Shown: piece by piece, positions 30,991 through 35,966 of the stretch
Numbering within the stretch: position 1 is the stretch's first letter
How the letters are laid out: each line of letters begins with the position of its first letter
Assembly (NCBI RefSeq): GCF_009914755.1
Contig: NC_060931.1
Source: the human T2T-CHM13v2.0 reference genome, Homo sapiens
Strand: one strand, 5' to 3'
Length of the DNA stretch: 64,000 bases
Notes under the pieces: generated by a model
Told to the model about the DNA's origin: nothing
The model's input: the letters and a program-made list of their open reading frames with translations, nothing else
The model's database searches: none
Translations under genes and position numbers: made by a program

Positions 30991-31039
30991 ACCAAAATGA
31001 CTTTTTGGAGAGGAGTTATTAGACTACCTCTGGAAGTGC

Positions 31040-32177
31040 TGTAACAGCCCAATGGGTTCTTCTTGCCTGCTGCCTAGAAAAGCCAATGCATTGAGAGCAA
31101 CAGTTTTTGGAGCAGAGAAAGAGTTTAATTATCAGAGGGCCAGCCAAGCAGAAGGATGGGAGATAATTTTCAAATCTGCCTCCCTAAGAATACGGAAGCT
31201 AGGGTTTTTCAAGGATAGTTGGTGGCTGGGTGTGGTGGCTCATGCCTGTAATCCCAACACTTTGGGAGGCCGAGGCGGGTGGATCACTTGATGTCAGGAG
31301 TATGAGACCAGCCTGGCCAACATGGTGAAACCCCGTCTCTACTAAAAATACAAAAAATTAGACCAGTGTGGTGGTGCATGCCTGTAATCCCAGCTACTTG
31401 GGAGGCTGAGGCAGGAGAATCACTTGAACCTGGGAGGTGGAGGTTGCAGTGAGCTGAGATCATGCCACTGCACTGCGCTCCAACCTGGGCGACAGAGAAA
31501 GACTCCGCATCTCAAAAAAACAAAAAAGAAAGAAAAGAAAAAAGAAAAGCAAGCTGGGGACAGTGGCTGGTTATCACTTCTTTTTTTTTTTTTTTTTGAG
31601 ACGGAGTTTCGCTCTTGTTGCCCAAGCTGTAGTACAATTGCGCGATCTCGGCTCACTGCAACCTCTGCCTCCCAGGTTCAAGAGATTCTCCTGCCTCAGC
31701 CTCTCAAGTAGCTGGGATTACAGGTGTGTGCCACCATGCCCGGCTAATTTTTTGTATTTCTAGTAGAAACAGGGTTTCACCATGTTAGCCAGACTGGTCT
31801 TGAACTCCTGACCTCAGATGTTCCGCCCACGTCAGCCTCCCAAAGTGCTGGGATTATAGGTGTGAGCCACCGCGCCCAGCCAGTTATCACTTAACTACAC
31901 CTACTTCTTAGCAATTCAGGCCCCTCCCATAATCCTAATCTTGTGACCTTTCATTAGTTTTTCAAGGGTGATTTTTGGTTCCTGAACAAGTAGGGGGTTA
32001 GTTTTGGGAAGGAAGGAGCTATTATTGTCTTTGCCTTACAGTTAAACTATAAATTCCTCCCGTAGTTAGCTTGGCCTATGCCCAGGAATGAACACACAGC
32101 TTGTGAGGTTAGAAGCAAGATGGAAATAGCTATGTCAGATTTATTTGACTTTCATCATTTTTGCAAATGCAGTTTCA
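31040..32177 (-). mobile_element. LTR8-family (ERV1) solo LTR interrupted by two inverted Alus (31225-31548 +, 31578-31881 -)
   Basis: TGAAACTGCATTTGCAAAA...CCCATTGGGCTGTTACA termini; TSD GTGC/GTGA. Confidence 0.8.
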
Positions 32178-32224
32178 GTGACACTGGGAGCAACACACAT
32201 CCATATCTGTTCAGTGGTTTGGAG

Positions 32225-32736
32225 CAGGGCCCTCAATCCCTGCTCTGTGGCCTGTTAGGAACAGGGCCACATAGAAGGAGGTGAGTGGGGGGTGAGCAAA
32301 TGAAGCTTCATCTGTATTTACTACCACTCCCCTTCACGCACATTACTGCCTGAGCTCCATCTCCTGTCAGATCAATGGTGGCATTAGATTCTCATAGGAA
32401 CTTGAACTCTATTGTGAACTGCACATGCAAGGGATCTAGGTTGCATGCTCCTTATGAGAATCTAATGCCTGATGATCTGTCACTATCTCCCATCACCCCC
32501 ACATGGGACCATCTAGATGCAAGAAAACAAGCTCAGGGCTCCCACTGATTCTACATTATGGTGAGTTATATAATTATTTCACTGTATATTATAATGTAAT
32601 AATAATAGAAATAAAGTGCACAATAAATGTAATGCACTTGAATGATCCTAAAATCATCCTCCCCCATGCCCCGGTCCATGGAAAAATTGCCTTCCACAAA
32701 ACTGGTTCCTGATGCCAGAAAGGTTGTGGACTGCTG
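32225..32736 (+). mobile_element. MER1A hAT-Charlie DNA transposon
   Basis: ~510 bp; CAGGG...CTGCTG termini; degenerate 8-bp TSD GTTTGGAG/GGTTAGAG. Confidence 0.85.
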
Positions 32737-32826
32737 GGTTAGAGGACATGGAGCTGGAAGACCTGAGAAGGTAGAGAAAAAGGTTCTATGCCAGACTGGT
32801 CATATTTAGAAAACACTTCGTATTAT

Positions 32827-33629
32827 TGTTACGGTGGGGGAGGAGTGGTCCTTGCTCCCAGAGCTCCCAAGATGGTGGCAGGCCACTTCCAAAATGGCAG
32901 CAGGCCACTTCCAAGATGGTGGCAAGCCTCGTGTTCTCTGACCTGGGGTTCTTGGCCTCACAGATTCCAAGGAATGGAATCTTGAGCCATGTGGTGAGTG
33001 TTATAGCTCTATTAGAAGCCATGGGTCACGGAAGAGAACCATGGAACCCAGTGACTAGTGTTCAGCTCAATTAGGACGAACCCAGGCACTTAGCCCTGCA
33101 GGAACAATGGCAAGCCTTTAGCCTTATTGGGAGTGGCAATGGGCACCTCGCTGGATCAGGAGCACAGCTGACACCCTGCTGGATCCGGAGGGATGGAAGT
33201 CAGCGGCGGGTCTGCGACGGCGGCAAACAGCAGTGGTGGACGGCAAGTGAAAGCTCAGCTCGAGCGAGCCTTAACAAACATGGACCAGAAGAGTGCAGTT
33301 GCAAGATTTAATAGAGTGAAATAGAGTGAAAACAGATCTCCCATACACAGGGAGGGGACCCAAAGAGGGTAGCTGTTGCTGGCTCGAATGCCTGGGTTTC
33401 TATCCCGATCATTGTCCCTCCCGCTGTGCTGTCATGCAACAGATGATTAGCTATTTCTTTACCTCCTGTTTTCGCCTAATTAGCATTTTAGTGAGCTCTC
33501 TTTACTATCTGATTGGTCGGGTGTGAGCTAAGTTGCAAGCCCCATGTTTAAAGGTGGAAGGGGTCACCTTCCCAGCTAAGCTTGGGGATTTTTAGTCGAC
33601 CTAGGAAATCCAGCTAGTCCTGTCTCTCA
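32827..33629 (-). mobile_element. LTR17 solo LTR (HERV-W/HERV17 family)
   Basis: Minus strand begins TGAGAGACAGGACTAGCTGGATTTCCTAGG and ends ...GTAACA; ATTAAA poly(A) signal; 4-bp TSD TTAT/GTAT. Confidence 0.92.
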
Positions 33630-35247
33630 GTATAACTATTGTTGTGTGCATTTTATTCCTCACTACTGTATATATCATTGACAATGCTAAGTACTTTTTT
33701 GAAATATCTAGGCTTTGTAGGTATTCAGTGCCTGATACATATGTTAAAAGTAAAAGTAGAGGTTGTAAAATGATACATTTTGTAAATGTCTTTTTGTTAA
33801 AATTCCATAAGAAATGTTTGGGGGAGAATGGCCAAACCACCCCTTGAGTAGTACACATTGTGTTTGTGCACTGTTTCAGGGGAGGAGACAGGAAAAGGAA
33901 GTGCAAAGAGCTCTATGCTGATGTCCACAGTGAGGCAAGATTAACCACTGTTCCTTACTTCTATGCATTTTATTGTACTTATCTGTGTATATAAAGGATA
34001 AACAATACCTAATTTACAACATCTAGTCTTTCTAGATGTTAAAGAGTTGCTTGTGTATAACAAAAGTAAGTTTAGTAAACGAGTATGTTTTATACATTTT
34101 GCTCAAATTTCCGAAAATTTGAGCATTATTGACCACTGAGTTGATGGAGATGGGAAGGGTTTTAGGCCAGAATGTTCATATTTTAAAGGCTCTTTCAAAT
34201 TATAACTACTCTTACATGTGTGCAATTTATTCAAGACTGCTGTACACATAGTGGACAAATTAACTCCTTATGTATGTTAAATGTAGAGGTAGTAAAATAT
34301 CACTTTTTGCTAAAATTCATAGGAAAATTGGCTTTTGGAAATGGAATTGTTACACCACTTCTGTGAGCAGTATATTATTGTCTGTACTTGTTCAGTGGTT
34401 TAGAGGAGGTAGGAGGGAAGGAATTGCAAAAGGTAATATGCTAGTGTGTTCATATTTGGACATTTTCAGGAACTTTTTTTCTGTATGTTTTGTGCATTTT
34501 GTTTTGCTGTGTATATAGTGTATATAATGGACAAATGAGTCCTAATTTTGCAACATCCAGTCTCTAGATGTTAAAGAGGTTGCCAGTGTATGAAAGCACT
34601 TAGAATTAGCACAGTTTTGTACACTTTGTGTTGAAATAGCAAGTTGTCTTCTGTAAATGACTTGGATATGAATTTGTTCAACCATCTCTAAGCATTACAC
34701 ATGCTTATGTTTGTCCACTGGATTGAAGGCAGAGAGAAGGAAGTGAGGATAGAATGGTTCAAGGCCAAAGTGGTCATATTTAGAAGATCTCTCAGATTGT
34801 GACCCTTGTAATGTGTGTAATTTAACTGCTGTGTATATAGTAGACAAGTTCTGATATGAAATATCTAGTCTTTGTAGATATTCGGATGTGCCTAATGTTT
34901 TAAAAGCAGAAGTAGTAGAGTAACGCTTTTTGTAAATAGCTTTTAAAAATTAATGGAAAATACCGTGTTTGGAAGTATAATAGAATGTTAAACCACCTCT
35001 GTGAACAGTGTACTCTCTGTATCATTCATTGGGTTGAGGGAGGAGGGAGGAAATTGCAAAAGGTGTTTTGCTAATGTGTACTAGAACATTTCAGCTTATC
35101 CATTGCTCTATATATTATGTTCTTTTGATTTAACTTTTCTGTACTGTATATATTGTGCATGTACTGGACAAGTGAGTCTTAACTTTATAATACCGAATCT
35201 CTGGATATTAAAGACGTTGCCAATGTATGACAAAAATAGAGTTACTA

Positions 35248-35570
35248 GGCTGGGCATGGTGGCTCACGCTTGTAATCCCAGCACTTTGGGAGGCCGAGGC
35301 AGGTGGATCACGAGGTCAGGAGTTCGAGACCAGCCTGGCCAACTAGTGAAAACTCTTCTCTACTAAAAATACAAAAACTTAGCCGGGCGTGGTGGCAGGT
35401 GCCTGTAATCCCAGCTACTTGGGAGGCTGAGGCAGGAGAATCGCTTGAACCCAGGAGGCGGAGGTTGCAGTGAGCCAAGATTGTACCATTGCATTCCAGC
35501 CCAGGCAACAGTGTGAGACTCTGACTTAAACAAAAACAAAAACAAAAACAAAACACACACACACACACAA
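35248..35570 (+). repeat. Alu inserted in the 3' end of the NORAD retrocopy
   Basis: Alu consensus; degenerate TSD ...GAGTTACTA/CAGTTAGTA. Confidence 0.95.
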
Positions 35571-35966
35571 AAGAACCAGTTAGTAAACTAACACATTTTG
35601 TAAAAAAAAAAAAAAAAACCAAAAAAACAAAAACAAAAAACACACACACACAAAACAAAAAAATTGAGCTTTTTGATGAGCATGCTTGGAGTTTGGTATT
35701 TTCTGTCATCAAATAAGGGCAGATTCATTAGCTTTAACAATCAGCAGAGTTAAAGGAAAGGCTGACTTCCTCTTAGTTGAGAAGCATGACTATGACAATG
35801 CCTAAAGAGAAGGCTGTGCCACCCTTGCATGGAGGTAGGCAGAGTGAACACCATATTTAGAATGTAATTTCTAACTAATTTCCATGCAACCCAGGGAAGC
35901 TGGGTACAAAGGTATGAACATTACACAAAACTCTAGGAGTGCAATCAAAACCTCAAATTTTTATAC

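What the first reader, a model, noticed from the sequence alone, without database searches (positions are those of the whole stretch)
30995..35662. Hidden NORAD lncRNA retrocopy between CYCS and C7orf31 that still has its Pumilio-decoy architecture
Seen: once four insertions are removed (LTR8, MER1A, LTR17, Alu), a ~1.8-kb plus-strand sequence remains. It is built from ~280-320-nt units, each typically with a U-rich stretch, a PRE, a GGACAAA..TCC short stem, an AACATCTAG-TCTTT-CTAGATGTT hairpin (perfect at 34018-34040; degenerate at ~33702, 34552, 34859, 35189) and an AAAAGTAGAG..AGTAAA element. Seven perfect TGTAHATA PREs occur in 1.5 kb (33667, 33986, 34510, 34519, 34832, 34931, 35145), plus TGTAGATA at 34873. 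Known: this is the architecture of NORAD (LINC00657), which sequesters PUM1/PUM2, and NORAD has multiple retrocopies. The sequence is colinear with NORAD as I recall it, from roughly nt ~950 onward. Inference: if transcribed, 33630-35247 would be a multivalent PUM-binding RNA. The ORF track and ordinary repeat annotation do not reveal it.
Basis: partly seen in the sequence, partly recalled or inferred. Interest (0 to 1): 0.85.

Follow-up and report, generated by a model that had tools for sequence, protein, structure and literature searches.

The report
Old decayed NORAD retrocopy near CYCS
This is an ancient, broken-up copy of the NORAD long noncoding RNA that was pasted into chromosome 7 by retrotransposition and has since decayed like dozens of similar copies, so it is an ordinary pseudogene, not a hidden Pumilio decoy.

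Summary
All seven TGTAHATA sites lie at the stated coordinates. The ~300-nt unit periodicity is real, as is the perfect 9-bp hairpin at 34018-34040.

Once the insertions are removed, window 30996-35602 is colinear with nt ~958-2769 of a 5,354-nt single-exon unit on contig C20. That unit is NORAD: two published NORAD primer pairs match it exactly, and no other held locus has all four primers.

The copy is 5'-truncated. It ends at an AGTAAA hexamer plus 15 nt, followed by a 60-nt A-rich tail, so it came from a prematurely polyadenylated transcript.

There is no sign of preservation:
- PRE columns changed 21 of 92 against 251 of 1537 elsewhere.
- Of five strong NORAD hairpins in the aligned region, one is kept, three are weakened and one is deleted.
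- Its terminal branch (0.10) equals that of five equally old copies.

At least 35 other NORAD-derived loci exist in this genome. No plus-strand gene is annotated here, and expression could not be tested. Verdict: an unannotated but ordinary dead NORAD processed pseudogene.

The parts
30996..31037 (+). 5'-truncated start of the retrocopy, matching NORAD nt ~958-999
   Evidence: Local alignment of 42 columns to NORAD. The 10-nt exact core 31027-31036 = nt 989-998 is colinear with the next pieces. Upstream sequence does not align.
31038..32193 (.).
   Evidence: It breaks colinearity between NORAD nt ~999 and ~1001. The Alu parts match Alus beside NORAD and give sub-threshold Metazoa_SRP hits.
32194..32212 (+). 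Short retrocopy fragment, NORAD nt ~1001-1020
   Evidence: Weak local alignment, colinear only. Not significant on its own.
32213..32736 (.).
   Evidence: 5389 first-look candidates in the genome. The 39 scored matches other than the self-match are 84-87% identical. It splits NORAD nt ~1020 from nt 1021.
32737..32818 (+). Retrocopy fragment, NORAD nt 1021-1104
   Evidence: BLAST 92.9% over 84 nt, E 9e-31. This identity is not exceptional: 47 of 1544 equal-sized windows in the main block reach 78 of 84.
32836..33625 (.).
   Evidence: 795 first-look candidates. The 39 full-length matches other than the self-match are 89-92% identical. It lies between NORAD nt 1104 and nt 1124.
33642..35246 (+). 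Main block of the retrocopy, NORAD nt 1124-2752: about five repeat units with seven TGTAHATA sites (33667, 33986, 34510, 34519, 34832, 34931, 35145)
   Evidence: BLAST 77.5% over 1709 columns, 1332 bits. MAFFT gives 1311 matches, 241 mismatches and 215 gap columns. PREs, unit spacing.
35247..35577 (+). Fourth insertion: an Alu with its own A/CA-rich tail, flanked by an 8-nt duplication of NORAD nt 2745-2752
   Evidence: Alu matches and sub-threshold SRP hits. NORAD nt 2745-2752 aligns on both sides of the Alu, as expected for a target-site duplication.
35578..35602 (+). Last templated piece, NORAD nt 2745-2769, with an AGTAAA hexamer at 35582-35587
   Evidence: 25 of 25 identical. The hexamer and its position are read.
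35603..35662 (+). A-rich tail of the retrocopy, decayed into A/CA/AAAAC runs
   Evidence: Sequence, TRF rows 35602-35661. NORAD continues with unrelated sequence after nt 2769.

Best explanation
Window 30996-35662 (+ strand) is an old processed pseudogene (retrocopy) of the lncRNA NORAD. A NORAD transcript was cleaved and polyadenylated prematurely inside the repeat region, about 15 nt after an AGTAAA hexamer at NORAD nt 2749-2754. It was reverse-transcribed and inserted here with 5' truncation at nt ~958, presumably by the LINE-1 machinery (inferred). The copy therefore never had NORAD's promoter. It was later split by an LTR-like element (which then took two Alus), a high-copy interspersed repeat, a second LTR-like element and another Alu. 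It has drifted at the same rate as other NORAD retrocopies of its age. Its seven PREs are inherited remnants of about twelve ancestral sites, not a maintained decoy. It most likely does nothing.
For: Identity:
- The main block hits C20:37769200-37770828 at E=0.
- The pieces are colinear with nt ~958-999, ~1001-1020, 1021-1104, 1124-2752 and 2745-2769 of a 5,354-nt unit. I delimited that unit by where four 88-96% copies start and stop.
- The unit is NORAD. All four primers of two published NORAD pairs (passages of PMC10480464 and PMC6522956) match it exactly and convergently. No other held locus has all four.
- It has 15 TGTAHATA, as PMC7976429 states for NORAD (passage). Its 90% full-length copy lies on C6 at 26.39 Mb, where HCG11 (6p22.2, 91% identity) is described.

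Retroposition:
- Homology stops inside the transcript at both ends, and a 60-nt A-rich tail follows nt 2769.
- Three independent copies (L012, L023, L026) end at the paralogous site of another unit (nt 2160-2162) followed by A-runs. L010 and L025 end at nt 2729-2730, after an ATTAAA, followed by A-runs.

Neutral decay:
- PRE columns changed 21 of 92 against 251 of 1537 elsewhere (OR 1.52, p=0.11).
- Slots kept are 6 of 11, against 22 of 67 in seven copies of similar divergence (p=0.19).
- Of five strong NORAD hairpins in the region, one is kept, three are weakened and one is deleted.
- 103 NORAD positions are deleted.
- The terminal branch is 0.1035, against 0.090-0.110 for the five other basal copies.
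- The inserted repeats look younger than their host, as they must be: best pairwise identities are 84-87% and 89-92%.

Context: the supplied RefSeq table lists no + strand gene here. The region lies antisense in an intron of alternative SPMIP4 transcripts.
Against: - No target-site duplication is recognisable: 141 of 500 shuffles score as well. The LINE-1 mechanism is therefore inferred from the tail and truncation alone.
- Slot-level retention of 6 of 11 exceeds the naive (1-d)^8 expectation of 0.24 (binomial P=0.028). That expectation ignores the clustering of changes into deletions. One of the 27 control copies (L011) gives P=0.023.
- One hairpin (34018-34040) is a perfect stem, where human NORAD has a G-U pair.
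- Two PREs (34519, 34832) have no perfect counterpart in present human NORAD.
- Expression, PUM binding and cross-species conservation were not testable here, so non-function is inferred, not shown.
- Bootstrap support inside the basal cluster of the tree is low (30-62%).
Confidence: 0.88

Rival explanations
1. The copy is transcribed on the plus strand, for example from an upstream LTR-like insertion or divergently from the CYCS promoter region. It then acts as a minor multivalent PUM1/PUM2 sponge, as HCG11 has been suggested to.
For: There are seven perfect TGTAHATA sites in 1.5 kb on one strand. One unit has an intact PRE-plus-hairpin arrangement. Slot retention is on the high side, 6 of 11 against 22 of 67 in the pooled controls. 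An expressed NORAD retrocopy, HCG11, is a known precedent (passage of PMC4947167).
Against: - The copy lacks NORAD's first ~957 nt and so its promoter.
- The supplied annotation has no + strand transcript here.
- PRE columns are not protected.
- Hairpins are decayed.
- The branch length equals that of its age-mates.
- About 3 kb of inserted repeats split the copy, so a transcript from upstream of the 5' pieces would have to read through them.
- Tichon et al. state that the closely related pseudogenes other than HCG11 do not appear to be expressed. That statement concerns the >90% copies, not this one.
Confidence: 0.05
2. The sequence arose by DNA-level (segmental) duplication of part of the NORAD locus, not through an RNA intermediate.
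For: No target-site duplication was found. NORAD has a single exon (passage of PMC7976429), so intron loss cannot be used as evidence.
Against: Homology ends at an A-rich tail directly after a hexamer-plus-15-nt site. Three other copies end with A-runs at the paralogous site. Nothing outside the transcribed unit is shared.
Confidence: 0.03
3. It is a copy of a copy, retroposed from another expressed NORAD retrocopy such as HCG11, not from NORAD itself.
For: HCG11 is expressed, so secondary retroposition is possible in principle.
Against: In the tree the window copy joins the basal cluster of the comb. That is far below the HCG11-position copy (terminal branch 0.034) and below nodes with 81-100% support. 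It is no closer to any other copy than to NORAD (73-82% to all).
Confidence: 0.03

Closest known systems
NORAD (LINC00657), the chr20 lncRNA that sequesters PUM1/PUM2
   Same: The repeat-unit architecture is the same: PRE, short stem, U-rich stretch, 8-9-bp hairpin and an AGTAAA-containing element. The copy is colinear over NORAD nt ~958-2769, with 84.5-86.8% identity at aligned positions.
   Different: - It covers only about a third of NORAD, with no promoter, no first ~957 nt and no last ~2.6 kb.
- It has 7 PREs against 15.
- It keeps 5 of the 9 present NORAD PREs in the shared region. Two of the lost ones are deleted.
- Hairpins are mostly weakened.
- It is split by about 3 kb of inserted repeats.
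- No transcript is annotated.
HCG11, the expressed NORAD retrocopy on 6p22.2
   Same: Both are retrocopies of NORAD that carry PREs.
   Different: The copy at the HCG11 position is full length (NORAD nt 12-5354) and 90% identical. Its terminal branch is 0.034, and it keeps 9 of 11 PRE slots. It is annotated and expressed at about 1/20 of the NORAD level (passage of PMC4947167). The window copy is much older (branch 0.10), partial and fragmented.
Other old NORAD processed pseudogenes in this genome (e.g. C3:136.53M, C6:28.48M, C12:75.89M, C16:64.53M, C9:105.9M, CX:77.69M)
   Same: They are of the same age class, with terminal branches of 0.09-0.145. Substitution identity to NORAD is similar at 0.835-0.874, and PRE slot retention is 2-4 of 6-11. 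Several are also 5'-truncated, end at internal poly(A) sites, or both.
   Different: The window copy keeps somewhat more PRE slots (6 of 11), though not significantly. It ends at nt 2769, a site that no other examined copy uses.

Membership tests
NORAD processed pseudogene (retrocopy) | Significant colinear homology to the NORAD transcript | tested here: met
   E=0, 1332 bits over NORAD nt 1124-2752, with colinear flanking pieces. The C20 unit is tied to the name NORAD by two published primer pairs.
NORAD processed pseudogene (retrocopy) | Homology confined to the transcribed unit, with a poly(A) tail at its 3' end | tested here: met
   A 60-nt A-rich tail lies at 35603-35662, directly after NORAD nt 2769 and 15 nt past an AGTAAA hexamer. 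The 5' end lies inside the transcript.
NORAD processed pseudogene (retrocopy) | Target-site duplications flanking the insert | tested here: inconclusive
   The best flank alignment scores 14, and 141 of 500 shuffles do as well. This is expected for a copy with about 10% drift, but the feature is not shown.
NORAD processed pseudogene (retrocopy) | Loss of the parent's introns | not testable with these tools
   NORAD is a single-exon gene (passage of PMC7976429), so this criterion carries no information.
Functional Pumilio-decoy lncRNA (NORAD-like) | Many PREs (UGUAHAUA) on one strand | tested here: met
   Seven sites in 1.5 kb on the + strand.
Functional Pumilio-decoy lncRNA (NORAD-like) | Purifying selection on PREs and unit structure | tested here: not met
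   PRE columns changed 21 of 92 against 251 of 1537 elsewhere. Of five strong hairpins, one is kept. The branch length equals that of age-mates. This is a within-genome test only; no orthologues were available.
Functional Pumilio-decoy lncRNA (NORAD-like) | Own promoter and abundant, stable cytoplasmic transcript | not testable with these tools
   No expression data were on hand. The copy lacks NORAD's 5' ~957 nt, and the supplied RefSeq table lists no + strand gene.
Functional Pumilio-decoy lncRNA (NORAD-like) | Direct PUM1/PUM2 binding (CLIP or RIP) | not testable with these tools
   No CLIP data were on hand.

The most novel reading that the evidence does not exclude
The fragment 33630-35602 is transcribed on the plus strand in some tissue and ends at its inherited AGTAAA site. 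It would then add seven Pumilio sites to the cellular decoy pool, as a second expressed NORAD retrocopy beside HCG11. The more general point is that the NORAD repeat unit carries a usable internal poly(A) site. At least four independent retrocopies record it as a fossil, which implies short NORAD isoforms in the germline.
Probability: 0.04. Interest if true: 0.45.

Novelty: new member of a known kind. Interest (0 to 1): 0.13.

Why it matters
It matters little for biology. NORAD is already known to have left many pseudogenes in mammalian genomes (passage of PMC4947167), and this is one more old, decayed one.

It has some practical value. lncRNA retrocopies are not in the RefSeq gene table supplied with the finding. 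Such PRE-rich fossils can therefore look like novel regulatory RNAs, or attract multi-mapping NORAD, CLIP or probe signal.

The set of at least 35 copies is also a dated fossil record of NORAD. It shows when PREs and the internal Alu were gained or lost, and that transcripts ending at internal unit sites were retroposed repeatedly.

Tried and rejected
- **Target-site duplication:** the flank search was not significant.
- **Rfam:** scanning 30500-36200 at E<=0.1 found only sub-threshold SRP/Alu and miRNA-like hits inside the Alus, and no NORAD family.
- **The 93%-identical 84-nt piece (32737-32818):** I considered gene conversion or constraint and rejected both. 47 of 1544 equal-sized windows in the main block do as well, and the binomial p is 0.06.
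- **First PRE count:** my first strict-position count (3 of 9) was an artefact of an over-gapped alignment and register shifts. I replaced it with the MAFFT reading and the slot analysis.
- **Dating the nested repeats:** I could not build their family alignments. Only pairwise identities are used.
- **Literature:** I looked for a description of this copy or of NORAD retrocopies in general, and for internal polyadenylation of NORAD. Beyond the general statements in PMC4947167 I found nothing. I read only search listings and matched passages, and no supplements.
- **Repeat names:** LTR8, MER1A and LTR17 could not be verified, nor could the orientation or promoter potential of the LTR-like insertions.
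Full report
**1. Observation**

The whole 64-kb window has 19 matches on both strands against 6.09 expected, and 0 of 100 shuffles reached 19.

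Direct-repeat families inside 33600-35260 recur at 274-324 nt or twice that. The hairpin at 34018-34040 is a perfect 9-bp stem (-10.4 kcal/mol, z -3.41, 0 of 200 shuffles as good). The other four named hairpins are degenerate, with z from -0.47 to -1.65. TGTAGATA at 34873 is read.

**2. Identity**

The main block (33630-35247) was searched against the window's own genome, which is T2T-CHM13 according to the hub's note. It hit 36 places besides itself, and these are lower bounds because only 40 of 55 candidates were scored. The best hit was C20:37769200-37770828 on the minus strand, at 77% and E=0.

Four copies of 88-96% identity begin and end at the same points of that C20 locus. They delimit a 5,354-nt unit that ends just after an AATAAA. 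Three lines of evidence tie this unit to the name NORAD:
- All four primers of two published NORAD qPCR pairs match it exactly and convergently, at nt 1333/1395 and nt 4631/4679 (passages of PMC10480464 and PMC6522956). Among all held loci only the C20 locus has all four, and the window copy has none.
- The unit has 15 TGTAHATA, the number that PMC7976429 gives for NORAD (passage).
- Its full-length 90% copy sits on C6 at 26.39 Mb. This fits HCG11, described on 6p22.2 at 91% identity.

**3. Anatomy**

The window pieces are colinear with NORAD as follows:

| Window | NORAD nt | Note |
|---|---|---|
| 30996-31037 | ~958-999 | 5'-truncated start |
| ~32194-32212 | ~1001-1020 | weak alignment |
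| 32737-32818 | 1021-1104 | 78 of 84 identical |
| 33642-35246 | 1124-2752 | main block |
| 35578-35602 | 2745-2769 | 25 of 25 identical |

Between the pieces lie four primary insertions:
- An LTR-like element at 31038-~32193, which contains two Alus in opposite orientation.
- A 524-bp high-copy repeat at 32213-32736, with 5389 candidates and scored matches of 84-87%.
- A 790-bp solo-LTR-like repeat at 32836-33625, with 795 candidates and full-length matches of 89-92%.
- An Alu at 35247-~35577, flanked by an 8-nt duplication of NORAD nt 2745-2752.

In the main block, BLAST gives 77.5% over 1709 columns including gaps. MAFFT gives 1311 matches, 241 mismatches and 215 gap columns, which is 84.5% at aligned positions. 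The NORAD-anchored count is 1324 identical, 202 substituted and 103 deleted.

**4. Mechanism of origin**

The copy starts inside the transcript, so it is 5'-truncated and has no promoter. It ends at nt 2769, and a 60-nt A-rich tail follows (35603-35662). NORAD itself continues with unrelated sequence after nt 2769. The end lies 15 nt past an AGTAAA hexamer at window 35582-35587 (NORAD nt 2749).

Other copies show the same kind of ending:
- L012, L023 and L026 end at the paralogous position of another repeat unit (nt 2160-2162, after the AGTAAA at nt 2139). Each is followed by an A-run and has a different flank.
- L010 and L025 end at nt 2729-2730, after an ATTAAA at nt 2712, again followed by A-runs.
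- L008 ends at nt 2604 followed by an A-run.

So the window copy derives from a prematurely polyadenylated NORAD RNA. That AGTAAA and ATTAAA are variant poly(A) signals, and that the LINE-1 machinery did the insertion, rest on established knowledge and inference. No target-site duplication could be recognised: 141 of 500 shuffles scored as well.

**5. Is the decoy architecture preserved?**

I anchored 31 other loci to NORAD coordinates. The PRE analysis covers the window copy and the 27 of those loci with more than 300 nt in nt 1124-2752.

*PRE slots.* A majority consensus of NORAD plus the copies, leaving out the window, has 11 PRE slots in nt 1124-2752. The window copy keeps 6 of 11. Copies of similar divergence keep:

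| Copy | Slots kept |
|---|---|
| L007 | 2/11 |
| L009 | 5/11 |
| L013 | 3/11 |
| L014 | 4/10 |
| L022 | 2/6 |
| L024 | 3/10 |
| L026 | 3/8 |

Pooled, that is 22 of 67, and Fisher p=0.19 against the window copy.

*PRE columns.* Site by site, PRE columns of the window copy changed 21 of 92. Non-PRE columns changed 251 of 1537 (OR 1.52, p=0.11). If anything, PRE columns changed more, because two PREs were removed by deletions.

*A result pointing the other way.* The naive slot expectation (1-d)^8 = 0.24 gives a binomial P of 0.028 for 6 of 11. That expectation assumes independent site changes, and one control copy (L011) gives P=0.023.

*Comparison with present human NORAD.* NORAD has nine PREs in this region:
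- Five are kept: 1149/1151 with a register shift, 1453, 2050, 2477 and 2650.
- Four are lost: 1252 by substitution, 1462 by a 9-nt deletion, 1836 by a 12-nt deletion and 2659 by substitutions.

*The two extra PREs.*
- 34519 corresponds to a slot that 7 of 20 other covering copies keep, but that human NORAD and its youngest copy have lost.
- At the slot of 34832, only the window copy and L013 have a PRE among 16 covering copies. It may be ancestral or a gain.

*Hairpins.* Of five NORAD hairpins of -9 kcal/mol or better in the region, the window copy keeps one (-10.4). Three are weakened to between -3.5 and -5.7, and one is deleted. At a sixth position, where NORAD's own hairpin is poor (-2.5), the window copy folds better (-6.1).

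**6. Age and rate**

A GTR+G tree of NORAD and 19 copies over nt 1124-2752 is a comb. A slowly evolving NORAD trunk carries side branches that lengthen from 0.008 to 0.145. Twelve of the 31 anchored loci were left out of the tree. All had low coverage of this region, between 0 and 673 of 1629 positions.

The window copy sits in the basal cluster with a terminal branch of 0.1035. Its five cluster-mates have 0.090-0.110. Support inside that cluster is only 30-62%, but nodes that separate it from the younger copies have 81-100%. The window copy has therefore drifted as fast as its age-mates.

It is far older than the copy at the HCG11 position (0.034). The inserted repeats look younger than their host, as they must be. 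An age of roughly 50-100 My follows only from recalled neutral rates and is not tested.

**7. Context**

By the supplied RefSeq table, the region has no + strand gene. It lies 296 nt beyond the 3' end of the main SPMIP4 transcript (minus strand) and inside an intron of alternative SPMIP4 transcripts. Any SPMIP4 read-through would carry the antisense strand, which has no PREs. Expression, CLIP and cross-species data were not available.

**8. What is known**

Tichon et al. (PMC4947167, passages only) state that NORAD has a large number of pseudogenes in mammalian genomes. They describe four in human with >90% identity over >4 kb, of which only HCG11 appears to be expressed. They also describe the 12-unit architecture, with PRE, short stem, U-rich stretch and 8-9-bp hairpin.

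My searches found no description of this chr7 copy, nor a catalogue of old NORAD retrocopies. I read only listings and matched passages, and no supplements, so a supplement could list it.

**9. Verdict**

The suggestion of a retained Pumilio-decoy architecture is not supported. This is an ordinary, old, fragmented NORAD processed pseudogene.

Noticed in passing
L012 (C7:23.34M), L023 (C2:53.55M), L026 (C9:105.9M), L010 (C2:108.87M), L025 (C2:188.24M), L008 (C5:25.29M); window 35582-35662: NORAD retrocopies repeatedly end with A-runs at internal sites of the repeat units. Three end at nt 2160-2162, and the window copy ends at the paralogous nt 2769; both sites lie about 15 nt after an AGTAAA. 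Two more end at nt 2729-2730, after an ATTAAA, and one ends at nt 2604. This suggests that the units carry usable cryptic poly(A) sites and that short NORAD isoforms existed in the germline. My searches found no paper on this (passages only).
   Followed up: partly
L016 (C20 NORAD unit) nt ~3673-3958; L018, L014, L028, L031: The NORAD transcript contains an Alu-like ~285-nt segment. The 90-96% copies L017, L019 and L020 contain it. It is absent from L018 (88%) and from the older copies L014, L028 and L031, whose flanking alignments abut. The Alu therefore entered NORAD between those retropositions.
   Followed up: partly
NORAD nt 2059 slot (window 34519): The consensus of the copies has a PRE at this slot. 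The window copy and 7 of 20 other covering copies keep it. Human NORAD and its youngest copy (L008, 98%) lack it. NORAD itself therefore seems to have lost one PRE recently.
   Followed up: no
window 31225-31513 (+) and ~31578-31881 (-): Two Alus in opposite orientation lie about 65 nt apart inside the first LTR-like insertion. An inverted Alu pair like this would form a long duplex if transcribed.
   Followed up: no
Genome-wide: At least 35 loci besides NORAD and the window copy match the 1.6-kb block at E<=0.001. They include clusters on C6 (26.39, 28.48 and 29.04 Mb) and two near-identical-looking hits on C14 (100.72 and 100.80 Mb). This is a lower bound, because 40 of 55 candidates were scored.
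   Followed up: partly
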